Source of the DNA: a virus
Taxonomy: Duplodnaviria > Caudoviricetes
DNA: 57,361 bases
Direction: 5' to 3' (one strand)
IMG/VR virus record: IMGVR_UViG_3300025725_000003
Location: 1 to 57,361 of that record
Below, one piece after another: positions 1 to 57,361 of this stretch (within the stretch, counting starts at the first letter, position 1; each line of letters starts with the position of its first letter). A program made the translations under genes and the position numbers. The notes below the pieces were generated by a model. The model searched no databases. It worked only from the letters and a program-made list of their open reading frames with translations, and had not been told where the DNA came from.

Positions 1-118
1 CGCCGATAAATTCTTTTCGGATATATATGGTCTCGAATGGCAGGGCCTAGAGTTGGATGTAATTTATTTTGAAGGGGATTGGTTGGATGAGGACCCCGGG
101 GGCCAGGAGGTGCTGTGA
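1..118 (+). CDS. 3' end of the ASCH-domain gene (same gene as 56818-57189)
   Basis: Encodes ...ADKFFSDIYGLEWQGLELDVIYFEGDWLDEDPGGQEVL*, the same as the C-terminus of ORF 56818. Confidence 0.85.
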   Translation, partial: ADKFFSDIYGLEWQGLELDVIYFEGDWLDEDPGGQEVL

Positions 119-122
119 TGTA
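1..122 (+). repeat. Terminal direct repeat/circular overlap, copy 1 (empty insertion site)
   Basis: Identical to 57072-57193 except A61 vs G57132; continues GTAGTCACTG. Confidence 0.97.
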
Positions 123-199
123 GTCACTGATTATACAATCAATTTTGTTATTATTGGTTTGATTTTAATTATCATCTGTTTGATTTTTGGACGGGTGGT

Positions 200-448
200 A
201 TGATGTCTGCTTTCCCTGTGGACCCGGTGACGAATTCGGTCAATTACATGCGAATACATGCTTCTAAAATGGGCTATGAGCAATGCTTCGATGGCCATCT
301 GCTAGCAATATACGACATGGAAGAGAAAGGCAAGGACGGCGTCCTATACTGCCTATGCAGAGTCGACACGCCTTGCCCATGCCCTGAAAGCGTGGACGAA
401 ATCGAGAGAAATGGTCAATGCCATTGCGGTATTTTCAGGAGGAAATAA
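200..448 (+). CDS. Ferredoxin:thioredoxin reductase catalytic (beta) subunit-like protein
   Basis: YCLCR...CPCP...GQCHCGIF matches the FTR CPC/CPC/CHC Fe-S and disulfide motifs. Confidence 0.75.
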   Translation: MMSAFPVDPVTNSVNYMRIHASKMGYEQCFDGHLLAIYDMEEKGKDGVLYCLCRVDTPCPCPESVDEIERNGQCHCGIFRRK

Positions 449-617
449 CGTGGCAGTCGATAACCAATTTTCCACTGATATTAAAGTTTGCGATCCTCGG
501 GTAAGAGGAAGTGCCGTCTGCAACATTGACGGGAAATGTTCAGTATGCGCTTATGCTGAGAAGTTTGAACACCCTGAGAAACACATTTGAATTTTTTGGA
601 AACGTAGGAGCTAAAGT

Positions 618-1160
618 ATGTCCCAAATACAGATAATCGCATTTGAAGGCGCAGATAATGTCGGAAAGAGTACACTCGCTGAGATGTTATCTGACTATTT
701 AGATCGTAAATTGATTAAATTTCCAAACGAAAGTATCGATTCAGGAAAACAAATCCGGAGAATGCTGAATGGTAATGACCCATTCGATCCGGCATATTCA
801 CAGGTTCTCCAAAATGAAAACAAAATCGACACGTTGAAAACAATTCGACCAGGAACTTATATTTTCGATCGATTTAAACTTTCCGAAATCGTGTATGGCA
901 TTGCAAATGAACTCTCCCGTTATGATGTTATGGCATTGGCTGACGGTCTCCCGGATCCAGACATTACATTTCTTATTACAGGCAGATCGTACGGGTATGA
1001 TGCTGACATTTACGGGGACGATGAGTACCAGTCCACGATAACGAAACTGTATCTCACTGAGGCTAAGAATAGTTCTGGTAGGATTGATACAATCAATAAT
1101 GAAAAGTCTATAGACGACGTTTTCGGGGAAGTTACGTGGGCGTTAAGGGGGATAATATGA
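618..1160 (+). CDS. tmk: Thymidylate-kinase-family dNMP kinase
   Basis: P-loop IAFEGADNVGKST, FDRF...SEIVYG and PDITF motifs. Confidence 0.85.
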   Translation: MSQIQIIAFEGADNVGKSTLAEMLSDYLDRKLIKFPNESIDSGKQIRRMLNGNDPFDPAYSQVLQNENKIDTLKTIRPGTYIFDRFKLSEIVYGIANELSRYDVMALADGLPDPDITFLITGRSYGYDADIYGDDEYQSTITKLYLTEAKNSSGRIDTINNEKSIDDVFGEVTWALRGII

Positions 1161-2085: not shown

Positions 2086-2873
2086 TGGGGAAAGTAAAAA
2101 CAATCGAACAGTACATACCGGAAATTAGTGTAATATATCCACAAAAAAATAAGCATGGGGAGAAGCGATGTAGTAAATGTGGGGTTTTAAAAACATTATC
2201 CGAATTCTACAAACACAAGAGAGGTAAAGACGGCCTTGCGTGGTCTTGTAAATCATGCAACAAAGAATATAAGGAAAAGAACAAAGAAAAAATAAGCCTA
2301 AGAACGAAAAAATATAACCAAGAGCATAAAAACGAGCGGCGAGATTCCGCATATAAATATTATTTAAAAAATGTAGATAAAATAAAAGAATATAGTGAAA
2401 AGAACAAAGAAAAAATAAACCTAAGAACGAAAAAATATAACCAAGAGCATAAAAACGAGCGGCGAGACTCCGACCATAAATATTATTTAGAAAATATAGA
2501 TAAAATAAAAGAATATAATGCGGAAAGAAGACCACGAAATCGAGAACATGATAAGAAATATTTTAGAGAATATTTGATAATAAATCGAGAAAAACGATAT
2601 GAAAATGTAAGAAGATATAATAAAACAACTAATGGAAGAAATACCCGAAATAGACTTAGACAACTGCGAAGAACGTTTGGATACACCCCGATAAATAAAC
2701 AATTTTGTGGATCAGAATTTCATCATTTCCATATAAATAATTCATCTGATCTGGGTATATTCATTCCACGTGAAATACACCATTCTGTTTATCACAGTAG
2801 TTTAGATGGCACAGGTTTAAAAGAAATTAATAAAATTGCTTTACTTTGGTTATGCGAGCAGGCGGTGATTTAA
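2085..2873 (+). CDS. Putative HNH-like homing endonuclease with N-terminal Zn finger and Lys/Glu-rich coil
   Basis: CSKC...EFYK...CKSC Zn motif; C-terminal EFHH...IPREIHHSVYH. Confidence 0.6.
   Translation: MGKVKTIEQYIPEISVIYPQKNKHGEKRCSKCGVLKTLSEFYKHKRGKDGLAWSCKSCNKEYKEKNKEKISLRTKKYNQEHKNERRDSAYKYYLKNVDKIKEYSEKNKEKINLRTKKYNQEHKNERRDSDHKYYLENIDKIKEYNAERRPRNREHDKKYFREYLIINREKRYENVRRYNKTTNGRNTRNRLRQLRRTFGYTPINKQFCGSEFHHFHINNSSDLGIFIPREIHHSVYHSSLDGTGLKEINKIALLWLCEQAVI
2274..2519 (+). repeat. 123-bp (41-aa) in-frame tandem duplication inside the HNH-like gene
   Basis: EKNKEKI(S/N)LRTKKYNQEHKNERRDS..KYYL.N.DKIKEY occurs twice, starting at 2274 and 2397. Confidence 0.95.
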
Positions 2874-3583
2874 TGCCTGTAAAAAAAACAATCTCCCAAT
2901 ATGTAAATGAAATTAATGATCTATATAACCAGACACTTGAGTATCCAGATTCTGAAACATTTCAGAAAAAATTAAAAAACCGCGTTGGTTCATGGGCAGA
3001 TCTTTTAGAAATTACTGTGTTTGTTGCTTCCAATGAACAACGACCTTACACATCAGAGGAGTTAGGTTATTCCACAAGATCAATGTTATTAAAACAGCAC
3101 ACGAAAATTAAGCAGGTTGGGGACTTACATGCTTACTATTCGGGCGGTGGTGTTGCGGGATGGGTTGGCGTTTTAGTAGAGCGAAAGGGCGGCAAGAAGG
3201 GGATGGAAGATCTATACGGGACCCTGATGAACGCAGATAACTGTGCTCGGTTTTACAGGGAGATAGAAACATTTCAGGCAGATGAACGGTTCTCGCTGAT
3301 GGTCGTAATAGCCGAATGTACACTCACTGACTTTCTACTCTACGTTCCTGCATTCAATGGAAACAAACGCAACTATGACCACATTGGGGCCTCTGTGGAG
3401 TCCAGACGGGCAAAGATCAACTCACTCTATATTAGAGGAGTCCCGGTTTTGTTCGCGGGAGCACGAATAATGGCAATTGAGATGTATAGAGGGCTTATTC
3501 GTCAGTGGATCTTAAAAAATTACGTTTCTATCCTTAAACTGGGTATGCAAATAGAGGATAGCGAAAGATGTTGCCAAACATGA
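2873..3583 (+). CDS. ERCC4 (XPF/Mus81)-domain nuclease, probable resolvase
   Basis: SNEQ..P, VGD, VERK..EDL, RFYREI motifs; ATG at 2873 after a GGTGA SD. Confidence 0.75.
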   Translation: MPVKKTISQYVNEINDLYNQTLEYPDSETFQKKLKNRVGSWADLLEITVFVASNEQRPYTSEELGYSTRSMLLKQHTKIKQVGDLHAYYSGGGVAGWVGVLVERKGGKKGMEDLYGTLMNADNCARFYREIETFQADERFSLMVVIAECTLTDFLLYVPAFNGNKRNYDHIGASVESRRAKINSLYIRGVPVLFAGARIMAIEMYRGLIRQWILKNYVSILKLGMQIEDSERCCQT

Positions 3584-11690: not shown

Positions 11691-12140
11691 ATGGAAGTCC
11701 AAAAGAAACGGCATAGAGTACAGGCGCCGATTAACCCCAATGTTTTCCACTGGACCGGACCGCGTATGAGGGCCGTATTATTGATAGCGGAAGGGAAAAC
11801 ACGGCATGAAGCCATAGCTCTAGACGTTGGGGTACATTATTCTACGTATTGGGATTGGCGCCAACATCCAATTTTCCAAGCTGAGTTGAGCAGGTTAACT
11901 CTTGCAAATGAAAAAGCAACTCGTGAGGGGCTTCTTAGATTAGCTTTTAGGGCAATTGAAGCAAAAATAGGGAACGTTGCCGATGACCGAAGTACTGTGC
12001 TTGAATGGTCTAAATTTATAGCTGATCTTCAGGGGCATATGAAGCAGAAGATTGAACTCGAGGGCAACGTAAATCATACAGGTGAAGTTGTAATATACAT
12101 TCCCGATAACGGAAGAGACAAAAAGGATGATGAAAATTAG
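11691..12140 (+). CDS. terS: Terminase small subunit (HTH)
   Basis: HTH (IALDVGVHYSTYWDW..HP.F); C-terminal VVIYIPDNGRD typical of TerS; precedes terL. Confidence 0.8.
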   Translation: MEVQKKRHRVQAPINPNVFHWTGPRMRAVLLIAEGKTRHEAIALDVGVHYSTYWDWRQHPIFQAELSRLTLANEKATREGLLRLAFRAIEAKIGNVADDRSTVLEWSKFIADLQGHMKQKIELEGNVNHTGEVVIYIPDNGRDKKDDEN

Positions 12141-13542
12141 ACCGCAGTCGGGGCCGCAAGAAGCTTTTCTTAGTTCTCCTGCGGATATAATCATATATGG
12201 GGGATCCGCTGGCGGAGGTAAAACGACTGCGCTTTTATTGGAATGTTTACGAAATATTCATATAAAAGGATTTGGCGCTATAATATTTCGTAGAACATAC
12301 CCACAAATACGGAGCGTGGGGGGATTATGGGATACATCCGAGGAATTTTATCCGCACGCTGGTGGGTTACCAAAGGAATCTGATCTAACGTGGGAATTTA
12401 AACCATATGGGACTAACATTAAATTCGCTCACCTTGAGCATGAAAAAAATAAACATGATTATCAAGGTGCCCAAATCCCCCTCATATGTTACGACGAGTT
12501 GACACATTTCAGTGAGTCTATGTTCTTCTATCTTTTGTCCAGAAACCGTTCGACTTGCGGAGTCAAGCCTTATATAAGAGCAACCTGCAACCCAGACCCC
12601 GATAGTTGGGTAGCGTTTTTCATATCGTGGTGGATTGACCAGGATACAGGCTTTGCAATACCAGAGCGTTCTGGAATAATCCGTTATTTTGTAAGGATAA
12701 ATAATATAATTAGATGGGATGACAGTGTTGGGGCATTATGGGAACAAGTGAAAAACGAAATACCAGAAGAAGATTACCATCCTCAGAGCTTTACATTTAT
12801 TGCAGCTAAACTAGACGATAATCCAGCCCTAACTGAGAAAGATCCAGGATACAAGGGTCGTCTTATGGCTCTGGATATGGTTGAAAGGGACCGGCTGTTA
12901 GGTGGCAATTGGAAAATAAGATATCAAGCCGGAACAATGTTCAGGGAAGAATGGTTCACTCAGAATATAATAGACGTTTCTGAAATCCCCTGCAATCCTC
13001 TGGATCTACATTATATCAGATGGTGGGACGCGGCGGCCACCGCGCAGAGCAAGGACTCTAATAACCCGGACTGGTGCTCGGGTCTATTAATGGGTGAATT
13101 CAAAGGTAGATTCTATATTTTTGATGTAAATCATTTCCGAGAAACACCCGCGGGCGTTTACAGAAAAATGGAGTCTACCCGGGATATTGATGGTAAAAAA
13201 GTCACAATCGGAATGGAGCAAGAGCCTGGGTCGGCATCGGTTCGAGAAATTGACACTCTCAAAACTACAATGTTCTCAGGTTACTCTTTTCACAGTGAAA
13301 CAAGCTCGGGTAGTAAAATAATCAGGGCCAAATTACTTTCGTCTGCTTGTGAGAATGGGTTAGTTTATCTTATCCGCGGTCACTGGAACCGTGAATTTAT
13401 TCAGGAACTTGTTAATTTTCCAGATCCCAAATGGCACGATGATCAAGCTGATTCAGCTTCCGCTTCGTTTAATTATTTATCGAGTCGTAAAGGTATGAAT
13501 AATTTCAGTCTATCAAGTATTGCAACAACGATAAGCCGGTAA
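12127..13542 (+). CDS. terL: Terminase large subunit
   Basis: PQ.GPQ, YGGSAGGGKT, YDELTHF, ATCNPD; RNase H domain WDAA...EQEPG...HDDQADS. Confidence 0.96.
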   Translation: MMKIRPQSGPQEAFLSSPADIIIYGGSAGGGKTTALLLECLRNIHIKGFGAIIFRRTYPQIRSVGGLWDTSEEFYPHAGGLPKESDLTWEFKPYGTNIKFAHLEHEKNKHDYQGAQIPLICYDELTHFSESMFFYLLSRNRSTCGVKPYIRATCNPDPDSWVAFFISWWIDQDTGFAIPERSGIIRYFVRINNIIRWDDSVGALWEQVKNEIPEEDYHPQSFTFIAAKLDDNPALTEKDPGYKGRLMALDMVERDRLLGGNWKIRYQAGTMFREEWFTQNIIDVSEIPCNPLDLHYIRWWDAAATAQSKDSNNPDWCSGLLMGEFKGRFYIFDVNHFRETPAGVYRKMESTRDIDGKKVTIGMEQEPGSASVREIDTLKTTMFSGYSFHSETSSGSKIIRAKLLSSACENGLVYLIRGHWNREFIQELVNFPDPKWHDDQADSASASFNYLSSRKGMNNFSLSSIATTISR

Positions 13543-20970: not shown

Positions 20971-22434
20971 ATGAAAACAGTAACTGTTCCATCTAGCATA
21001 GACGATAGTATAAAATTACAGAAGTTAATAGACTCAACAGGCAATACTCCATCTGAATTTATATTTCCAGATGGCGACATCGAAATTAAATCGCTTTTAC
21101 GACTGTACAACTTCACCAAGTGGAATGGAGCAAATTTTCATCTGATGGATAATGCCCCCCTCAGCCCATTTGCGGCGCAGGTTCCTCTTATTGGATCAAA
21201 GTATAAAACTGGGATTACGGGATTGGAGTTTTGTAATATAAAATTCGATGGGCATTATAGTACACAAAAATATTCAACTGCGAGCGCCGGCACCGATCAT
21301 GGAAAGGGATATCATAATTTCATCGGGTTGGGTGATGTTGCAAACCCCATATTTTCAAATGTTACAAATTGCTCTTTTCATGATATCATAGCCGGATATA
21401 ATCAAGGAGATGAGATCCGGGTCGAAGGCGGGAGCAATATAAGGGTATGGAATATTAAAAGTAAACTATGCGGACATGACATAATACATGGGAACTGCAT
21501 ACAAGATTCTGAAATATTCAATTGTAATGTTAATACACATTCTAACAACTTCTTAAGACTGCGGTCTTCCAACCACGTTAGGGTCCATGACAATATTATG
21601 GATGGAACTGGTACATATGCTCCACCTATGCAAGTTGAATCTATAAATAAAAACAAGGCATCGTCTGATATTTTTATTTATAATAATGTCATGAAGAACG
21701 CGCTTGGTCCAGGCATACAGATCATTGGCACGGTCCCATATAATTCAGGAATCACAATAAAGAACAATCTGATTTATAATTGTGGTTTGATGCCCGCTGC
21801 GAATAAACTTACAAATGTCCCAGGGATCGCTTTTGATGGGTTCGATAACGTTTTAATTGAAAATAACACTATAGATAAATGTAGAAGCTATGGGATTTTA
21901 GCAGGGCCATATAATTTATCCTCGACATATAAGGGAAAAGCAACCATCCGACGAAACATTGTGACAAGTACGAAAGTTGCATATACTCCAGGCCCGATGT
22001 CGGGCTGCGGAATCGCCGATTTAACAGGTGGACGGTATTCCATAACCTCCGAGGAAAACTGCCTTTATGGCAATTTGACGAACTACTACAAGATCACAAG
22101 TTCCGGAGACGTGAAGCTAAATCCTCTCTATGTCGCAAACAGTGACTACCACTTACAAAGCACCGGTGGGCATTATTCATCGGGGGGCGTGGTATGTGAT
22201 TCAACCACCTCTCCTTGTGTCCTACGGGACTATGAACTCGGGTGTTATAGTGGATGCTCCGAAGCTTCTTTTTTTCCCCCGGGTGAACTCCCGTGCGAGC
22301 TTCCTGCAATTGTCATCCCTAAAAAAGATGAAACGGATTTGAGGAACTTTTATACCGCTTTGCTGGAAAGTGGACTTTTAGAAAAGGGAGACAGGGTAGA
22401 ATTCATTCACGTCTCAACAGATTTCAAGGTGTGA
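20971..22434 (+). CDS. Right-handed beta-helix polysaccharide depolymerase, disaggregatase-related
   Basis: GKGYHN, GD.IRV..GSNI, GHD, NP.Y..SDYHLQSTGG...SPC motifs resembling Methanosarcina disaggregatase-related proteins. Confidence 0.65.
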   Translation: MKTVTVPSSIDDSIKLQKLIDSTGNTPSEFIFPDGDIEIKSLLRLYNFTKWNGANFHLMDNAPLSPFAAQVPLIGSKYKTGITGLEFCNIKFDGHYSTQKYSTASAGTDHGKGYHNFIGLGDVANPIFSNVTNCSFHDIIAGYNQGDEIRVEGGSNIRVWNIKSKLCGHDIIHGNCIQDSEIFNCNVNTHSNNFLRLRSSNHVRVHDNIMDGTGTYAPPMQVESINKNKASSDIFIYNNVMKNALGPGIQIIGTVPYNSGITIKNNLIYNCGLMPAANKLTNVPGIAFDGFDNVLIENNTIDKCRSYGILAGPYNLSSTYKGKATIRRNIVTSTKVAYTPGPMSGCGIADLTGGRYSITSEENCLYGNLTNYYKITSSGDVKLNPLYVANSDYHLQSTGGHYSSGGVVCDSTTSPCVLRDYELGCYSGCSEASFFPPGELPCELPAIVIPKKDETDLRNFYTALLESGLLEKGDRVEFIHVSTDFKV

Positions 22435-42691: not shown

Positions 42692-45600
42692 ATGGCAACT
42701 ACTTACACAGTCGGTCTGACAGGTTCAGGAGCTACTTATATTTGTGATGGTACCGGCGACCAAACCCAGATAAACCAGGCCCTCGCGGCCGCGAACGGTA
42801 ACCCGGGAAGTACGGTTCGACTGTCGGATGGTACTTACAATATATCGGCCCAGATTCTGATGGGTAGTTCAACTACCTTAACCGGAAATACCGCAGATCC
42901 AACCGCAGTTAAACTGAGAGTTCCGAATTCGGGAGCTGGGGCTTTCCCTGACGGAACCGCCATAATTGAGAGGTTGGGGTCCGGGGTTGCTACGGGTGTT
43001 GAGATCTCTTATATGGAGATTGACGGAAATTGTGTACCGCAATCAACCACCCTAGGCCTGGCTCACGGTAAACCAAGTTCGTCAGGGTCAGGGGTAGAAA
43101 GGTGTATACAGTTTGCCGGCGGCTCCGGAAGTTACCCAAAGGCCAAAGATATTAATATCCATCATATGTATTTTCACGATGCATTCGGTGAAGCAATCCA
43201 TATTTATTATGCTCAAAATGTTAGATTTCATCACAATTCATGCTATAACATGCAGCATGATGCTATTTTTCTTATAGAGTGCGCCGGTAGCGGAAACGAA
43301 ATCAATAATAATATAATTGAGGGGATAACGGACGGGTGTATTCGGCTAGATAACTGCACCGATTTTAAAATACATGATAATACCCTTCGTCCGTATCACG
43401 GTCCTAATAACAATGGCGCATACGAGTACGGCGCGAACGGTATGCAGATCGCTAATGAAAGTAACAAAACCACTAAAACAAACAATCTTGAGATTTATAA
43501 CAACACATTTACCGATATTGATTTAACCGGGATTTGGTTTAATGATGTACTGGGAACTGCGGGGACCACTTCCCAGATCGTTCACCTTTATAATAACACG
43601 TTTACTAACTGTGGTTATACCTCGGGTTCAAGTGTTAACTATGGTTCGGGTATCACAGTAAATGGATGGGGAAATGGGTTAACAGTAGAATACAATACTT
43701 TTAATGGTTGTTATCAAAACGCTATTCAGATACTGAAAGCCATCGGAACTGCCAATTATACCGTTCTTATTAAAAACAATAATATAATTAATACAAGGGG
43801 CGCAGGTCATTCAACAAGTACGCTGTCAGCAAGTTACAAAGGATATGGTATTCTTAATTTAATCCCCACTCGAATAACGGCGACAATGATGGGCAATTAT
43901 TTTTCCGGAAACTTAAAGGGGAAATATTATCCAACCAACATGAGTTCAACGGTTGAAGCATCTACGTCTAACGGTCTTCGCCCGGGCTCGGAAACGACAG
44001 GCGGGGCAGGTGGGGCAGGCGGGTCAGCCGGGATAGATATAACAGTCGGGCAGGACGCAGCGAAGGCATCCGCGACTTATTTTTATTGTAATCCGGATAC
44101 TAGAAACGCAGGGACTCAGTTAAACTCCGCAATTACAGCAGCGGCACGTTCAGCAACGGCTACGAATCCGGTATATGTTTTCATAAAAGCAGCAGCGGCC
44201 CCATATTGGATTAATACTCAGGTTTTGGGAAAAAGTAATGTGAACATTGTGGGGGACGGGATATCCACAGTGACTCTAAAATTAATCAGTGGGTTGTCTG
44301 GCGGAAGTACTTACCCTCCTGGGTGGGGGAACGATTCGGGTGTTAGTTCATCGGGTGCTATGCTCATGCTTCTGAGTATTAGCAATGTTAGGCTATCGGG
44401 CTTCACGCTAGACGGCTCATGGGATGACCTGTACGCCTCGACTTATCCTAACCGGGGGCTTGGATATTTCAATGAAATTACAGTTGCCGGATCCTCCAAT
44501 ATATTCATAGACACTATAAAATTTATACGCGGCGCGAATGACGGCGTTATGGCAGGATCCACGAGTAATATAGTGGTTGCCAACTGTGAATTTAATATGA
44601 TCGGGCACGACGGAGCAGCTTATATTAGTTGCACAAACTCCGCGGTTCATCATAATAAATTTGCAATTAGAACAAACTCGGCTATAAGATTTGACAATAC
44701 CACCGGAAGTTTAGTTTTTTGTAATGAGGTTTGGACCGGGACCGGAGGAGGAGCAGGCATAGAATTACAACATGACGTAAACGGTAGCCTGCTATATAAT
44801 AATCATTTTCACAATATAACGGGGGCATCCCCGGGGTACGGTGCGATTGGGTACATTGGTCAAACCGTTTCAGGCAGCGGAGTACAGGTACACAACAACA
44901 TAATGGATAGTTGTACTTACTCCACTAATGACATGCCAGCCGGGTATACACTCACTAATAATTTAATTCTCAGTGCTCCCATCCTGGCTACCAATTACGG
45001 GACAAACACAGGAAATCTCACGAGTACGACAGGATTAACAAAATCCGGGAGTAACTATGCCAGAAATACCTATTATTCTGGTAGTGGTGTGACATATGGA
45101 ATTGACCCCACCATACTTTTAGACCTTCCGCCGATATTAAGTCGGCCGGGTGGCGGGATAGGCGGGGGTACAGGCGGAATCGTCACGCCCCCTACGTCAA
45201 CTATTCCTGTACGTTATATTCCCGGCGTGCGAACAATCCAACCCGATTGGGTATTTTCGGATTATTACATTTTAAATCAGGACGGATCGACCCATACCAG
45301 TTACGTGAATGGCTGGCCTCTTAATATTATAAGTTATACCGCCGACACACAAAAGGTACTCGCCACAAATAAAAGTCCAAGTATTGACGGTTGGAATATC
45401 GGAGATTTCGGTTTTGAAGGGTCAACCGCGACCATTGTATGTGGCGAGAACTCATTAGAAAGTGCCTGGGCATCGATATCCGCGTGGTATTCGCGTGCTC
45501 CCGCGATTCTTGAATTAGGTGACGTTTATTCCGAGTATTTCCTTGAATGTGTTCCGGGGAAACATAGTGCAGTTGTAAGAAAAGATCAGGGGGATATTCC

Positions 45601-48600
45601 CGCTGAGTATTATGAATATTCCATATCAGTGAAAACCACAATACCGTATTTCCAAAGCATCATGAAACGCATTAGAAGCAGGCTTGTTTATAATTCAATG
45701 CAGTGGAGCAGTGACGATAGTCAGCCTGGTAATAAACTGAAAAACGGATCATTTGATGAATGGGCGCCTAACGCTAATATGACGTGGACCTCCCAGACAA
45801 GCGCGGCTGACAACAATTGGAGGAGTGTTTGTTATGCCGATACGCTAGGGCTTTTTGTCGCAGTCGCGGAGACCGGCACTGATAACCGGATTGCGGTGTC
45901 CGATGGCTTTGGTGATTGGTCAATACCTTCCGGCCTATCGAGTGCGGCAAACCGTGATAATAATTGGAGATGTGGTATATGGGTACCCCCATCCACTAAT
46001 CTATCAACGGGCAGATTCATTGGTTTTTCAATAACTGGAACCGGAAACCGTGTCATTACGTCAGATGATTTGGTGACATTTACGGCTCAGACATCAGCAG
46101 CGGACAATTCATGGGGGTCTGCTTGTTATATCTCACCGAATGAAACTCTTGACAATGGCAGAGTTGTAGCGGTCGGTTACTCCGGGACGAATCGAGTAAT
46201 GTATTCGGATGATTTTGGTGTCACGTGGACAGCCGTTGTCTCGTCGGGTGAAGGATGCAACTGGTTGAGTGTAGCTTACTCTGAATATTATAAGCGATTA
46301 GCCGCAGTTGCGTATACAGGAACGGCCGGGGCGCAGGTCATGACATCCGATGATTTTGGGGCAACATGGACAAATAGGGCAAGCCCCACGCCGGTTCAAA
46401 AATGGACGAGTGTGATTAGAGTCAATGTGCTTGGGTGGTTTGTTGCGTGCAGCGAAGACGGAACGCAGCAGATAATGACCTCGCCAGACGGGATAACATG
46501 GACGCTACGGGATACCCCATATGGCAGCAGTACGCAAACAGGCGGTGGAACCGCAATAACCACTACCCCGTATACTACAGCCGTTGGTAGTTGGTACAGT
46601 TCGAAGTCCACTGCGTATTATGAAAATTCAACGAGCAAGGAGTTCGAAGTCGTTCTACCTGCACTCACGGGCGGGAGTGTTTACAGGATAGATCAGGTGT
46701 CATGCCAACTAAAAACCGGACTGGCGGGCACCACCGCATCTTTGAAAGTCACAATACAAGCAGCGTCTCTGTATTCGGGTGCTGAAACTACATTAGTGGA
46801 ATGGACAAACACAACGACTACTTATATTCAAAAAACGTTCGCCCTTGCCGTGAATTCTGCTACCGGAGAAACGGTTACCCTTCGGTATTATCTGAAAACA
46901 TCAAATGCCTCATATCGGGCATACACCACAGTGATTGGTTATATTTTTTCGGTGGCAGCGACAGGCGGGAGCAGTGTCACATATGCACGCAACCAATGGC
47001 GGTCACTTGTGGTTTCCCCCACAACTGATTTGATTGTCGCAGTTGCGCAAACCGGGACAGGAAATAGAGTAATGCTTTCTACGAACGCGGTGGACTGGAT
47101 AAACGGTGTTTCCGCTGCGGATAACAACTGGACATCGATAGCGTGCTCTGATTATACGTTTATAGCAGTGGGGGTCTCCGGAACGGGCAACAGGGCTATG
47201 GTATCCTCGGATAATGGGACAATTGAAAACATCCCACCCGCAGCATGGACTTTACAAAATACAGGCCTGAAGAGAGGTTTAGATTATATGGGTGATGGCT
47301 CAACAGGTGTCCTCATAACGGGCGATGGAGTGACCGCCGACATAGGCGGCATTTATCAGTCTGTTAATTGCGATGCAGGAGTCATCTATGTTCTTTCAGC
47401 AGTTGCAAAAACGATAGGACTAACACAGGGCAGTTTAGTGGTAGAGATATTCTCCGGTGGGTCCTCTATCCGACAACTCGTTTGGAATACGGCCACCGAC
47501 CCCGAAGAACAACAGATGACGGTAAAATATGATGTTTCCCCACTCGATTCGGTTATAAAAGTTCATGGGGTCGGAACACCAAACGATGGAGCTTTGTTAT
47601 TCTGTGACAGTGTGAGTTTTGAGAAATTGTCGGATTTTGAATTGTCTGCAGTGGGAAATGACATTATAACATACGGGCATGAAAATACAATTCCCGATAT
47701 CGAAGTCCATTCTGCGGTCCCTCAGACCGACAGCAGCGGCGTGATTACCGGAACTCAATTGATATACGACTCCGGGGTAACGTCATATACATCCGCCGCT
47801 ACATTCTACAGCCAGGCCTCCACGAGCATGGAGTTCACTGTCACTATTCCGGCACCTACAAACGGAGCAAGGAATAGACTAGACGAAGTTTCCGGCATGC
47901 TTTCAAACGTTCACGCGGGGACAGTATCTTACATGGCCGTTAATATGCAGGCGGCGTCTCTATTCGGGGGAGCCGAAACACCGATAGCCAACTGGACCAA
48001 TTCTACGACTACGGCAACCAAACAGATCAAAGCATTGTCGTCCTCCGCCGGGGTCAACGAAAGTATAATTTTAAAATATTTCTTGAAAACTTCGAATGCC
48101 AGTTATAGAGCGGTCGCTAGCCATTTTGGGTATAAGGTTACCCCACTGTTGGCATATTCGTCATCAAGTGATACAAACAGTCTGTCTATTTATAACTCGG
48201 TCGACCCATCCACTGTAATTGATATATGCAACCTCTTACCATATGGCTGCACTATATCAATCAACGCGGATTATACAGGATCATTTGAATATTCTACCAA
48301 TTTTGAGGACGATTCGGTGTTATCGACGATCGAGTCACGGATGGGAGAGATTGTATATTCTCCAGCGAACCGGACATTGACAATCGGTGTAGGAGCCGCG
48401 GTTGTATTTACTTTTGATACAAAGTTTGCAGTTACTGGGATGCCATTTATCCAAACTATGGTTATTTCAGGCATACCTCAGTTTTTGATTTCAGTATATC
48501 GTGGAACTGGCTATATGATAGACGGCAATACAGCCACTGATTTAATTAATACTATGATCTATCGAGAACTTGACAGCGGTGCTAATGTATCAATAATAGG

Positions 48601-48808
48601 GAATACTGTCTTCGGTATTCAGATCCAACCAAAAACCGGTGAATCGGTGGTATTGGGTTCGATTTTCGTGCACGCCGATTTAGTAACGATTGACGCACCT
48701 AGGCCGAAAATATTTGCAACGGGTGAACCAAATGTATTTACTTCGATTCTATCCGGTAATCCCGTTGTCTGCATATTGAAAACACGCGATCGAAATATGG
48801 TGATATGA
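42692..48808 (+). CDS. Giant distal-tail/receptor-binding protein (2 beta-helices, Asp-box beta-propeller, CBM-like and duplicated domains)
   Basis: Located between TMP and hub; CDGTGDQTQINQAL cap; SAADN.W/SDDFG.TW repeats; duplicated QAASL..GAET...YLKTSNASYRA domain. Confidence 0.75.
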   Translation: MATTYTVGLTGSGATYICDGTGDQTQINQALAAANGNPGSTVRLSDGTYNISAQILMGSSTTLTGNTADPTAVKLRVPNSGAGAFPDGTAIIERLGSGVATGVEISYMEIDGNCVPQSTTLGLAHGKPSSSGSGVERCIQFAGGSGSYPKAKDINIHHMYFHDAFGEAIHIYYAQNVRFHHNSCYNMQHDAIFLIECAGSGNEINNNIIEGITDGCIRLDNCTDFKIHDNTLRPYHGPNNNGAYEYGANGMQIANESNKTTKTNNLEIYNNTFTDIDLTGIWFNDVLGTAGTTSQIVHLYNNTFTNCGYTSGSSVNYGSGITVNGWGNGLTVEYNTFNGCYQNAIQILKAIGTANYTVLIKNNNIINTRGAGHSTSTLSASYKGYGILNLIPTRITATMMGNYFSGNLKGKYYPTNMSSTVEASTSNGLRPGSETTGGAGGAGGSAGIDITVGQDAAKASATYFYCNPDTRNAGTQLNSAITAAARSATATNPVYVFIKAAAAPYWINTQVLGKSNVNIVGDGISTVTLKLISGLSGGSTYPPGWGNDSGVSSSGAMLMLLSISNVRLSGFTLDGSWDDLYASTYPNRGLGYFNEITVAGSSNIFIDTIKFIRGANDGVMAGSTSNIVVANCEFNMIGHDGAAYISCTNSAVHHNKFAIRTNSAIRFDNTTGSLVFCNEVWTGTGGGAGIELQHDVNGSLLYNNHFHNITGASPGYGAIGYIGQTVSGSGVQVHNNIMDSCTYSTNDMPAGYTLTNNLILSAPILATNYGTNTGNLTSTTGLTKSGSNYARNTYYSGSGVTYGIDPTILLDLPPILSRPGGGIGGGTGGIVTPPTSTIPVRYIPGVRTIQPDWVFSDYYILNQDGSTHTSYVNGWPLNIISYTADTQKVLATNKSPSIDGWNIGDFGFEGSTATIVCGENSLESAWASISAWYSRAPAILELGDVYSEYFLECVPGKHSAVVRKDQGDIPAEYYEYSISVKTTIPYFQSIMKRIRSRLVYNSMQWSSDDSQPGNKLKNGSFDEWAPNANMTWTSQTSAADNNWRSVCYADTLGLFVAVAETGTDNRIAVSDGFGDWSIPSGLSSAANRDNNWRCGIWVPPSTNLSTGRFIGFSITGTGNRVITSDDLVTFTAQTSAADNSWGSACYISPNETLDNGRVVAVGYSGTNRVMYSDDFGVTWTAVVSSGEGCNWLSVAYSEYYKRLAAVAYTGTAGAQVMTSDDFGATWTNRASPTPVQKWTSVIRVNVLGWFVACSEDGTQQIMTSPDGITWTLRDTPYGSSTQTGGGTAITTTPYTTAVGSWYSSKSTAYYENSTSKEFEVVLPALTGGSVYRIDQVSCQLKTGLAGTTASLKVTIQAASLYSGAETTLVEWTNTTTTYIQKTFALAVNSATGETVTLRYYLKTSNASYRAYTTVIGYIFSVAATGGSSVTYARNQWRSLVVSPTTDLIVAVAQTGTGNRVMLSTNAVDWINGVSAADNNWTSIACSDYTFIAVGVSGTGNRAMVSSDNGTIENIPPAAWTLQNTGLKRGLDYMGDGSTGVLITGDGVTADIGGIYQSVNCDAGVIYVLSAVAKTIGLTQGSLVVEIFSGGSSIRQLVWNTATDPEEQQMTVKYDVSPLDSVIKVHGVGTPNDGALLFCDSVSFEKLSDFELSAVGNDIITYGHENTIPDIEVHSAVPQTDSSGVITGTQLIYDSGVTSYTSAATFYSQASTSMEFTVTIPAPTNGARNRLDEVSGMLSNVHAGTVSYMAVNMQAASLFGGAETPIANWTNSTTTATKQIKALSSSAGVNESIILKYFLKTSNASYRAVASHFGYKVTPLLAYSSSSDTNSLSIYNSVDPSTVIDICNLLPYGCTISINADYTGSFEYSTNFEDDSVLSTIESRMGEIVYSPANRTLTIGVGAAVVFTFDTKFAVTGMPFIQTMVISGIPQFLISVYRGTGYMIDGNTATDLINTMIYRELDSGANVSIIGNTVFGIQIQPKTGESVVLGSIFVHADLVTIDAPRPKIFATGEPNVFTSILSGNPVVCILKTRDRNMVI

Positions 48809-56313: not shown

Positions 56314-56526
56314 ATGGTAACTGAATGCATCAAGGTTTCCGAGAGTACAAAAAGGTACATTGACAAACGGAAAAAAGCCGGACAGCACACTAGCCGGGAT
56401 TCTGCATTAAGAGAGATAATCGAAGATGCAGAGAAGTATCGGGCGACAACGAGAGAAGGTGTCGCCGAACGAGTAAGGATGCAGAGAAGTATCGAGGCCC
56501 AGAAAACTGAAAAAGACGAAGATTGA
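56314..56526 (+). CDS. Ribbon-helix-helix regulator
   Basis: IKVSESTKRYIDKRK...SRDSALREII; divergent from the early promoter. Confidence 0.7.
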   Translation: MVTECIKVSESTKRYIDKRKKAGQHTSRDSALREIIEDAEKYRATTREGVAERVRMQRSIEAQKTEKDED

Positions 56527-56817
56527 TAACAACGGAAGAAAACTAAAGGAGCTATACAAAATGTCAAAAATAGATTTCACGTTTAAAGAATTGATGGGAA
56601 GAACACTCGTTGAAGAAATGTTTGAGGAGTTCGTAGACCGAACGTTTCCCACGGTAGAAGTTGGGGATTTTATTGAGGTGAATTAAATGGTATGTCCATA
56701 TTCACCATCCGGTAAAAATAAAGTTAAATGCGAATTGTATAACGAGTCGGCTGTGGTTTGCAACGTAACATCCATGTCTGATTTCTGTAGAAAGTTCAAG
56801 GAACTGGAGGGAGAATA

Positions 56818-57189
56818 ATGAAATGTTATTTCAAAGACCCACACCACGTCTCACTCCTGAAAAATGGCGAACAGAGACAAACTACCCGGAAAGCGAGTAC
56901 CATCAAAACAGGCGATACCTTAGAGTGCGTTTCGTGCGAAGGTGACGAGCTGATAGGTACTGCTATGGTAACGAGTGTAATAAAACTGCGTGGCGGGCTT
57001 GTCATTGAGCGACAGCGGGATACTACTCAAGACTCCTGGGCTATACGGGGGGGGTTCCCCAGTTTTGCCGACGCCGATAAATTCTTTTCGGATATATATG
57101 GTCTCGAATGGCAGGGCCTAGAGTTGGATGTGATTTATTTTGAAGGGGATTGGTTGGATGAGGACCCCGGGGGCCAGGAGGTGCTGTGA
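56818..57189 (+). CDS. ASCH-domain protein
   Basis: F...H..LLKNG..RQTTR...KTGD...IG.A.VT.V...A.RGGF.S. Confidence 0.75.
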   Translation: MKCYFKDPHHVSLLKNGEQRQTTRKASTIKTGDTLECVSCEGDELIGTAMVTSVIKLRGGLVIERQRDTTQDSWAIRGGFPSFADADKFFSDIYGLEWQGLELDVIYFEGDWLDEDPGGQEVL

Positions 57190-57193
57190 TGTA
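57072..57193 (+). repeat. Terminal direct repeat/circular overlap, copy 2 (filled insertion site)
   Basis: 121/122 identical to 1-122. Confidence 0.97.
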
Positions 57194-57361
57194 AACTACC
57201 ACTGAGCTAAAGACTCAGTGGCTTTAAAAGCCTAAGTTTACCAGAACACTGATCGGAGTTAACAAAATCAGTAAACGATGTGGGCGAATACATAGTTACC
57301 TTCAGATGCCGTCTCAGTCTGAAGCTCTAAGCTGGTGCAACCCAACTGAGGTAAGGAAGGG
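57191..57361 (+). ncRNA. IS200/IS605 element end with IscB/IsrB-type omegaRNA (HEARO) scaffold, truncated by the window end
   Basis: GTAAACTACC start; CCACTGAG-CTAAAGA-CTCAGTGG end hairpin; GTAAACT/AGTTTAC pairing followed by CAG; ACTGAT/ATCAGT stem; ATAG.TACC-TTCAGA-TGC...TCTGAAG-CTCT stem. Confidence 0.82.

What the first reader, a model, noticed from the sequence alone, without database searches (positions are those of the whole stretch)
57172..57361. IscB-type omegaRNA element caught inserting into the virus: filled and empty alleles on one contig reveal guide and TAM
Seen: the two copies of the terminal overlap diverge just after the ASCH stop codon. The copy at the window start continues ...GTGCTGTGAT|GTAGTCAC (empty site). 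The end copy continues ...GTGCTGTGAT|GTAAACTACCACTGAGCTAAAGACTCAGTGG, an IS200/IS605 end hairpin and HEARO-like scaffold. One SNP (61/57132) suggests two haplotypes. Established: IscB omegaRNAs take their 5' guide from flanking DNA, and the TAM lies 3' of the target at the empty site. Inference: the guide is about GGCCAGGAGGTGCTGTGAT and the TAM about GTAG, so the element could cut element-free sibling viruses (homing or inter-virus competition). The nuclease ORF lies beyond the window.
Basis: partly seen in the sequence, partly recalled or inferred. Interest (0 to 1): 0.72.

Follow-up and report, generated by a model that had tools for sequence, protein, structure and literature searches.

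The report
IscB guide-RNA transposon end in methanogen virus
The last 171 bases of this viral contig are the guide-RNA end of a small IscB (Cas9-ancestor) transposon sitting in one variant of a methanogen virus while the contig start shows the element-free variant, a tidy natural example of a known kind of element rather than a new system.

Summary
Window 1-122 repeats 57072-57193 (121/122), then the two copies diverge. The end copy runs into a HEARO/IscB omegaRNA that starts exactly at 57191 (Rfam RF02033, E 1e-9, cut by the contig end).

New evidence:
- Two metagenome contigs of a sister virus (80-90% identical, syntenic) carry the same element, 171/171 identical. It sits 190 bp further on, inside the homolog of ORF 200-448.
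- That copy has a full omegaRNA, an intact 412-aa IscB (RRXRR+HNH) and a matching far-end hairpin.
- The closest named IscB relatives (65-73%) are in Methanosarcinaceae. The virus is a head-tailed methanogen virus, probably of Methanosarcina.
- The empty allele is seen independently in Logan contigs of two runs. The filled junction is seen only in the window.

The junction falls exactly on the element terminus, with no shared k-mer that could cause a misjoin. I therefore read it as a real polymorphic insertion (about 0.7).

In this IscB clade 20 of 23 far ends abut ATGAA, and the sister-virus copy abuts ATGGA. GTAGT fits only a loose NWRR pattern. The far end of the window's insertion could not be reached. 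Homing between viruses remains inference.

Verdict: new member of a known kind, moderate interest.

The parts
57191..57361 (+). 5' 171 nt of the IscB omegaRNA scaffold, which is the transposon right end in TnpA terms. It is cut off by the contig end.
   Evidence: HEARO RF02033 51.6 bits, E 1e-9, model 1-165/211. It is 171/171 identical to L004 2266-2436 and L005 983-1153. The complete RNA in L005 is 983-1200.
57199..57221 (+). Subterminal hairpin of the element end.
   Evidence: One match in the window, 0 expected. A near-identical hairpin (one base different) sits at the far end of the L005 copy, 2492-2514.
57175..57190 (+). Inferred guide: the viral bases that would be transcribed 5' of the scaffold. 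The 16-nt length is assumed.
   Evidence: Position only, directly 5' of model position 1. That guides come from the flank is taken from the literature (passages). Not tested here.
57072..57193 (+). End copy of the 122-bp overlap (filled allele, G at 57132).
   Evidence: Alignment.
1..122 (+). Start copy of the overlap (empty allele, A at 61).
   Evidence: Alignment. The empty continuation is also in Logan contigs of X2 (exact) and X1 (G for A at the base equal to 122).
123..199 (+). Element-free continuation (GTCACTG...), the intergenic DNA before ORF 200-448. Bases 120-124 (GTAGT) would be the TAM if the insertion is simple.
56818..57189 (+). Upstream viral ORF (123 aa), same strand as the element. 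Its stop codon ends 1 nt before the junction.
   Evidence: No Pfam family.
200..448 (+). Small Cys-rich ORF (82 aa). Its homolog is split by the same element in the sister virus, at the point equal to window 316|317.
   Evidence: Weak FeThRed_B match, E 2e-4.
317..321 (+). ATGGA, the motif that abuts the element's far end in the sister virus. It is element-free here.
   Evidence: L005 2533-2537 aligns with window 317 onward.

Best explanation
The contig is one full turn (57,071 bp) of the genome of a head-tailed methanogen virus, probably of Methanosarcina. The assembler then ran on into a second allele. In that allele a non-autonomous IS200/IS605-family element of about 1.55 kb (omegaRNA, iscB, no tnpA) sits 1 nt after the stop codon of ORF 56818-57189. 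It lies in the same orientation as that gene. The window holds only its first 171 nt. Shown: the identity of the element, its exact terminus, the element-free allele, and a complete copy of the same element at another site 190 bp away in a sister virus. Inferred: the element is moved in trans by a host TnpA. Read-through from the upstream viral gene gives an omegaRNA whose 5' guide is the viral sequence ending at 57190. IscB with that RNA could cut element-free genomes at this site, if the flank is an acceptable TAM. Repair from a filled genome in a co-infected cell would then copy the element (homing).
For: The RNA family hit begins at 57191. The tail is 171/171 identical to the copy in L004/L005. 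In L005 that copy continues into a full omegaRNA with the pseudoknot arms paired. It also has a 412-aa ORF with RRXRR (E 9e-63) and HNH (E 3.5e-9) domains. That ORF matches solved IscB structures at E ~1e-34, with the aligned RuvC and HNH motif residues kept. L005 is syntenic with the window on both sides of the element. Copies in 4 of 4 laid runs, with two different other flanks, all break at 57191. The window's tail carries C57254 and G57283 like the sister-virus copy; the abundant copies in all 4 runs carry A and A. The filled and other contexts share only GTA before the element, too little for a k-mer misjoin. The empty allele is in X1 and X2 contigs. No Y1 transposase was found in the window, while the control Methanosarcina acetivorans has one. 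Closest named IscB relatives are in Methanosarcinaceae: 65-73%, with names. Host clues: two proteins with Disaggr_assoc domains, TerL 53.6% identical to Methanoculleus virus Blf4, and 54-58% TerL relatives in 2 of 81 Methanosarcinaceae genomes. Co-orientation with the upstream gene matches the bias reported for iscB elements.
Against: No sequence other than the window bridges the filled junction. In X1 and X2 the virus contigs pass to the empty site, and the omegaRNA lies on other contigs with another flank at about twice the depth. Those are contigs only, which drop rare variants. A viral-contig scan for the junction found 0. The far end is unseen. The flank right of the junction (GTAGT) does not resemble the clade's ATGAA or the sister copy's ATGGA. 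The HEARO score is below Rfam's gathering score even for the complete copy (63.3 vs 83). Cleavage, transcription and homing were not tested.
Confidence: 0.7

Rival explanations
1. Assembly or library artefact. The 168-nt tail belongs to a copy of the element elsewhere (sister virus or host) and was wrongly joined to this virus.
For: Only the window shows the junction. The element is multi-copy and more abundant than the virus in the same runs. The flank lacks the family TAM.
Against: The contexts share only 3 bases (GTA) at the join, so a de Bruijn graph could not join them without real reads. The join falls exactly on the element terminus. The tail matches the sister-virus variant, not the abundant one.
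Confidence: 0.13
2. The junction is real but the event is not a simple insertion. The element's far end abuts ATGGA at 317 as in the sister virus, and 123-316 is missing in that allele. That would be an old shared insertion followed by loss of the flank next to the omegaRNA, which would give the RNA a new guide.
For: The sister virus has the element against ATGGA. The window has the same ATGGA at 317. The window's own junction lacks a TAM-like flank.
Against: No known mechanism deletes flush to the element end. No sequence shows such an allele. It needs two events.
Confidence: 0.12
3. The tail comes from a host locus where an omegaRNA carries a virus-derived flank as an antiviral guide, and the assembler walked from virus to host through it.
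For: None direct. The rest of the tail-bearing molecule is unseen.
Against: A guide-sized match is shorter than any usual k. The identical element variant is demonstrably inside a sister virus. None of 59 Methanosarcina genomes searched holds an IscB above 73% identity to it.
Confidence: 0.03

Closest known systems
IscB-omegaRNA (HEARO, Rfam RF02033) non-autonomous IS200/IS605 elements, e.g. the Geobacillus stearothermophilus IscB element of Meers et al. (preprint 10.1101/2023.03.14.532601; passages read)
   Same: The omegaRNA lies directly upstream of iscB and is bounded by the transposon end. There is no tnpA in the element. It is co-oriented with the upstream gene. Relatives abut ATGAA, the reverse complement of the TTCAT TAM reported there. 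The proposed role is cutting the element-free site.
   Different: It sits in a virus of a methanogenic archaeon. Its omegaRNA scores below Rfam's gathering score. The flank at the window's site does not match the TAM.
Methanosarcinaceae IscB elements (source names include 'RNA-guided endonuclease IscB' of Methanosarcina, Methanolobus, Methanococcoides)
   Same: 65-73% protein identity, about 70% DNA identity along the element. Same end architecture.
   Different: Cellular and multi-copy: 12 of 59 genomes searched, one with at least 32 matches. The scaffold starts GTCAAC rather than GTAAAC. No near-identical cellular copy was found.
OgeuIscB (PDB 7utn, 7xht)
   Same: Sequence match E 8e-34 over the RuvC and HNH parts. 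Its TAM NWRRNA (abstract listing) is fully met by ATGGAA. GTAGTC meets the first five positions but not the sixth (C where A is required).
   Different: 496 aa versus 412 aa. Distant relative. The TAM of the viral protein is unknown.
Free-standing and intron homing endonucleases of phages; 'transposon non-restorative homing' proposed in review PMC13565253 (passages read)
   Same: A nuclease gene present in some genomes of a viral population whose target is the allele lacking it.
   Different: Here the target would be set by an RNA guide copied from the flank. The review presents homing of OMEGA elements between co-infecting phages as theoretical, with experimental support only from plasmids.
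IscB-like ORFs in deposited phage genomes (30 records, mostly annotated HNH endonuclease or hypothetical)
   Same: IscB-family proteins inside viral genomes. 7 IMG/VR contigs also hold IscB at 46-49% identity, each with a HEARO hit above gathering.
   Different: All hits are below 45% identity. By the tallied first words of their names they are bacteriophages or unnamed phages, none an archaeal virus. No filled/empty pair is known to me for them.

Membership tests
HEARO / IscB omegaRNA (Rfam RF02033) | Covariance-model match at or above the gathering score (83 bits) | tested here: not met
   Window fragment 51.6 bits. The complete identical copy in L005 scores 63.3 bits, E 1e-12. This is a significant but sub-threshold, divergent member. 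9 of the 10 HEARO hits among the 11 loci scanned are above threshold.
HEARO / IscB omegaRNA (Rfam RF02033) | Closing helix at the very 5' end, pseudoknot arms, and position within 500 bp upstream of an IscB ORF on the same strand | tested here: met
   L005 alignment: P1 and the pseudoknot arms GAACA/UGUUC pair. The RNA is 983-1200 and the ORF starts at 1260. In the window only the 5' 165 model positions can be seen.
IscB nuclease | N-terminal RRXRR/PLMP plus split RuvC with an inserted HNH, catalytic residues kept | tested here: met
   P0001 from L005: PF14239 E 9e-63, PF01844 E 3.5e-9. Solved IscB structures match at E ~1e-34, with D58, E154, H211/H212, H294 and D297 aligned to identical residues. 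Their catalytic role is recalled, apart from D58/H209/H210 named for GstIscB. The ORF itself lies outside the window.
IS200/IS605-family element (non-autonomous) | Subterminal hairpins at both ends, no inverted terminal repeats, no target duplication | tested here: met
   L005: hairpins at 991-1013 and 2492-2514 in direct orientation, with flanks CAG| and |ATGGA not duplicated. In the window only one end is visible.
IS200/IS605-family element (non-autonomous) | Insertion next to the family's TAM (here ATGAA on the IscB strand) | tested here: inconclusive
   Relatives: ATGAA 20, CTGAA 2, ACAAT 1 of 23. Sister-virus copy: ATGGA. Window empty site: GTAGT, 1 of 5 matching. An ATGTA starts 2 nt left of the junction. 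The far junction is unseen.
IS200/IS605-family element (non-autonomous) | A Y1 TnpA transposase available, in cis or in trans | tested here: inconclusive
   None in the window (0 matches to PF01797), and the L005 element has no second ORF. The control Methanosarcina acetivorans has the family. The actual host is unknown.
RNA-guided homing (OMEGA 'non-restorative homing') | Guide matches the element-free allele, a TAM is present, and cleavage and copying occur | not testable with these tools
   The guide match follows from the geometry. The TAM is doubtful. No expression or cleavage data.

The most novel reading that the evidence does not exclude
The IscB element is an active RNA-guided gene drive inside a population of methanogen viruses. 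It has landed at two sites 190 bp apart in sister viruses, and each landing reprograms its guide to the new flank. In co-infected cells it would cut element-free siblings, either converting them or excluding them. That would be the first natural case of virus-against-virus OMEGA homing, and it would be in archaea.
Probability: 0.2. Interest if true: 0.8.

Novelty: new member of a known kind. Interest (0 to 1): 0.5.

Why it matters
IscB/TnpB elements are thought to persist by cutting the site they left. Spread between co-infecting viruses has been proposed but, in the papers I could search, is shown only for plasmids. Here one viral population carries both the filled and the empty allele, and a sister virus carries the same element at a neighbouring site. 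That gives concrete target, guide and candidate-TAM sequences for testing RNA-guided homing in viruses of methanogens. It also adds IscB to the short list of mobile elements known in methanogen viruses. It is not a new mechanism.

Tried and rejected
Searches for more copies or junctions:
- Exact scans of IMG/VR found nothing (own record excluded by the tool). Targets: the element start, the empty site, the far-end hairpin, the filled junction and the alternative flank seen in X1/X2/X4.
- That alternative flank and the X3 flank are absent from the window. The X1/X2/X4 flank is also absent from all fetched loci.
- A genome-contig scan for the element start found 0.
- The search for related loci with the 82-aa ORF in IMG/VR found no relative.
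- The IscB protein search found no contig of viral-genome size. The nearest cluster, at 97% identity, lies on contigs of at most 3.8 kb. So a complete filled genome was not located.

Reads: all 24 runs listed are kept as Logan contigs and only 4 were laid. Junction read counts were therefore impossible. The absence of a bridging contig is not evidence against the junction.

Label: 'ASCH' for ORF 56818-57189 gave no Pfam or PHROG match.

Rejected ideas:
- The 122-bp repeat as true terminal repeats of a linear genome. L005 is contiguous across the join, and 168 nt follow the end copy.
- ATGGA as part of the element. The window has it at 317 without any element.

Supplements of the papers were not opened; TAM tables there may bear on the TAM comparison.

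Full report
**Observation**

The first 122 bases of the window repeat at 57072-57193 with one mismatch (A61 / G57132). The two copies then part. The start copy continues GTCACTGATTATAC... and the end copy continues AACTACCACTGAGC....

The contig is therefore one turn of 57,071 bp, plus a 122-bp overlap, plus a 168-nt tail from a second allele. IMG/VR classes the record as linear and CheckV gives 88% completeness. However, a sister-virus contig runs straight through the end-to-start join, so the wrap is real.

**What the tail is**

- Rfam's HEARO model (RF02033) matches 57191-57361 on the + strand. The score is 51.6 bits, E 1e-9, model positions 1-165 of 211, flagged as cut at the 3' end.
- The score is below the gathering score of 83, which is why the whole-window gathering scan lists nothing.
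- A scan of JGI metagenome contigs for the first 32 nt of the tail returned two contigs, L004 (2,478 bp) and L005 (5,837 bp).
- Both contigs carry a sequence 171/171 identical to the window's tail.
- In L005 the sequence continues into a complete omegaRNA at 983-1200. It scores 63.3 bits, E 1e-12, and both the closing helix and the pseudoknot arms are paired.
- A 412-aa ORF follows at 1260-2498.
- The ORF has Pfam RRXRR (E 9e-63) and HNH (E 3.5e-9) domains. It matches solved IscB structures at about E 1e-34.
- The residues aligned to the RuvC and HNH motifs are kept (D58, E154, H211/H212, H294, D297). Their catalytic role is partly recalled.
- The ORF's stop codon lies inside a second hairpin (2492-2514) that differs by one base from the one at 57199-57221.
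- This is the anatomy of a non-autonomous IS200/IS605-family IscB element of about 1,550 bp.
- No Y1 transposase is encoded in the window, and the L005 element holds no second ORF.

**The sister virus**

L004 and L005 are not host DNA. L005 aligns with the window on both sides of the element:

- 280-784 with window 56692-57190
- 667-975 with window 2-310
- 2533-3367 with window 317-1151
- further blocks up to window 3568

Identity is 78-90%.

So a related virus carries the same element at a different place, between the positions equal to window 310 and 317. That is inside the homolog of the small Cys-rich ORF 200-448. All five uninterrupted homologs (the window's own protein plus 4 metagenomic proteins) keep the spacing I-x-[D/E]-M-E-E-K at that point.

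The far end of the element there abuts ATGGAAGAG, which the window has at 317 without any element. That fixes the far boundary.

One oddity remains. The two L005 flanks joined together are one base too long for the reading frame.

**Is the window's junction real?**

For:
- Copies of the omegaRNA in other contexts all break exactly at 57191. These are the contigs of 4 of 4 runs laid (two different flanks) plus L004 and L005.
- The window's junction lies at that same base. A random chimera would hit the terminus only rarely.
- The window's flank and the other flanks share nothing but GTA before the element. A k-mer graph could not join them without real reads.
- The tail carries C57254 and G57283, as in the sister-virus copy. 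The more abundant copies in all four runs carry A and A.

Against:
- In the two runs that hold the virus, the viral Logan contigs pass through to the empty site. X2 matches exactly; X1 has G for A at the base equal to 122.
- In those runs the omegaRNA lies on separate contigs, with another flank and about twice the depth.
- No other viral contig holds the junction.

Logan contigs drop rare variants and no raw reads were on offer, so this is silence rather than contradiction. I put a real polymorphic insertion at about 0.7. The X2 contigs break around 57132, which fits a SNP bubble there. The SNP and the junction are 62 nt apart, so their phasing is not shown.

**Host**

- The window encodes a large terminase (12127-13542), a tape-measure protein, a major head protein and a major tail protein.
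- Two proteins carry the 'disaggregatase related' domain PF08480 (20971-22434 and 42692-48808). From recall, this domain family is tied to Methanosarcina cell-aggregate dissolution.
- The terminase's best deposited relative is Methanoculleus virus Blf4/L4768, at 53.6% identity over 96%.
- 2 of 81 Methanosarcinaceae genomes hold relatives at 54-58% identity.
- The closest IscB proteins in species-representative genomes are from Methanosarcina and Methanosarcinaceae, at 65-73%.
- 12 of 59 Methanosarcina genomes have this IscB clade, one with at least 32 matches.
- In the large protein database, most of the source names given for relatives at 62-73% identity are from Methanosarcinaceae.
- Closer relatives (76-97%) sit on short unnamed metagenome contigs.

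**Guide and TAM**

According to Meers et al. (preprint, passages read):

- The omegaRNA side of iscB elements is the transposon right end.
- The TAM lies 5' of the left end.
- The Geobacillus IscB TAM is TTCAT.

I collected far ends of the Methanosarcinaceae relatives. Among 23 distinct far ends, the element is followed by ATGAA in 20, CTGAA in 2 and ACAAT in 1. Two of the 23 share a flank and are probably the same insertion. After the pentamer the sequences are unrelated.

ATGAA is the reverse complement of TTCAT. The sister-virus copy has ATGGA. The window's empty site has GTAGT to the right of the junction, matching 1 of 5 positions.

GTAGT fits only a loose N-T-R-R or N-W-R-R pattern, which 7% and 15% of window positions fit by chance. 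OgeuIscB's published TAM is NWRRNA (abstract listing). The nearest ATGAA-like pentamer, ATGTA, starts 2 nt to the left of the junction. Such pentamers occur at 2.6% of positions, so this is not significant either.

The viral subfamily's TAM rests on a single far end. There are two possibilities. The insertion may be non-canonical, or the unseen far end may not simply rejoin at 120-123. One alternative is that it abuts ATGGA at 317, with 123-316 missing.

**Mechanism**

Shown:
- An intact IscB-omegaRNA element lives in this viral lineage at two sites.
- Both copies are co-oriented with the upstream gene. This matches the orientation bias reported for iscB elements.

Inferred:
- The element is mobilised by a host TnpA in trans.
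- The guide is supplied by read-through from ORF 56818-57189.
- IscB cuts element-free genomes if GTAGT is tolerated as a TAM.
- Recombinational repair from a filled genome then copies the element.

The two viral guides are lineage-specific. The sister virus differs from the window's guide region (…GCTGTAAT|ATGA versus …GCTGTGAT|GTAG). The window differs from the sister's guide region at many TAM-proximal bases.

**Comparison with what is known**

IscB-like ORFs are already present in deposited phage genomes. One search found 30 records, all below 45% identity, mostly annotated as HNH endonuclease or hypothetical. One search found 7 IMG/VR contigs with IscB at 46-49% identity, and all 7 have HEARO hits above the gathering score.

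The homing role of IscB/TnpB is established for chromosomal and plasmid sites. A 2026 review lists homing between co-infecting phages as a theoretical type (passages). My searches found no paper describing IscB in an archaeal virus or a filled/empty pair in a virus. These searches cover only open-access text, and supplements were not opened.

**Verdict**

This is a new member of a known kind. It is interesting mainly as a ready-made natural test case.

Noticed in passing
window 20971-22434 and 42692-48808: Two large beta-helix proteins carry the 'disaggregatase related' domain PF08480 (E 4e-30 and 4e-12). They are likely tail or host-recognition enzymes aimed at the Methanosarcina cell envelope.
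   Followed up: partly
window 12127-13542: The large terminase is 53.6% identical to that of Methanoculleus virus Blf4/L4768. It is 54-58% identical to loci in 2 of 81 Methanosarcinaceae genomes (L108, L109), which are probably proviruses.
   Followed up: partly
L101 1460-~1880 and L105 698-~1110 (Methanosarcina genome G001): Elements of about 400 bp with the omegaRNA start and the far-end hairpin but no iscB. They look like miniature derivatives of the same family.
   Followed up: no
G057 (Methanosarcina genome): One genome holds at least 32 near-full-length matches to this IscB clade, most with open frames. This is a large recent expansion.
   Followed up: no
window 200-448: An 82-aa Cys-rich ORF (CxC...CPCP...CxC) with a weak match to the ferredoxin-thioredoxin reductase catalytic chain (E 2e-4, just under the Pfam cutoff). 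In the sister virus the element splits it, and the second half begins at an ATG right at the junction.
   Followed up: partly
window 122 (equal to 57193): The element-free allele in run X1 has G instead of A at this base, directly beside the insertion point.
   Followed up: no
L005 976-983 and 2533: The two flanks of the sister-virus insertion, joined together, are one base too long for the frame kept by 5 of 5 homologs. This could be a later indel in the disrupted gene or an extra base carried at the omegaRNA end.
   Followed up: partly
runs X1-X4, equal to window 57191-57361: A variant of the same omegaRNA (A at 57254 and 57283) is abundant in peat and soil runs of several studies. X1, X2 and X4 share one upstream flank; X3 shows another. 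Its genome of origin was not found in the window, in IMG/VR or in the fetched loci.
   Followed up: partly
window 56400-56630: Soil runs X3 and X4 hold contigs about 90% identical to this stretch at high depth (up to about 390) although they lack the rest of the region laid. It may be a conserved or mobile segment shared with other genomes.
   Followed up: no
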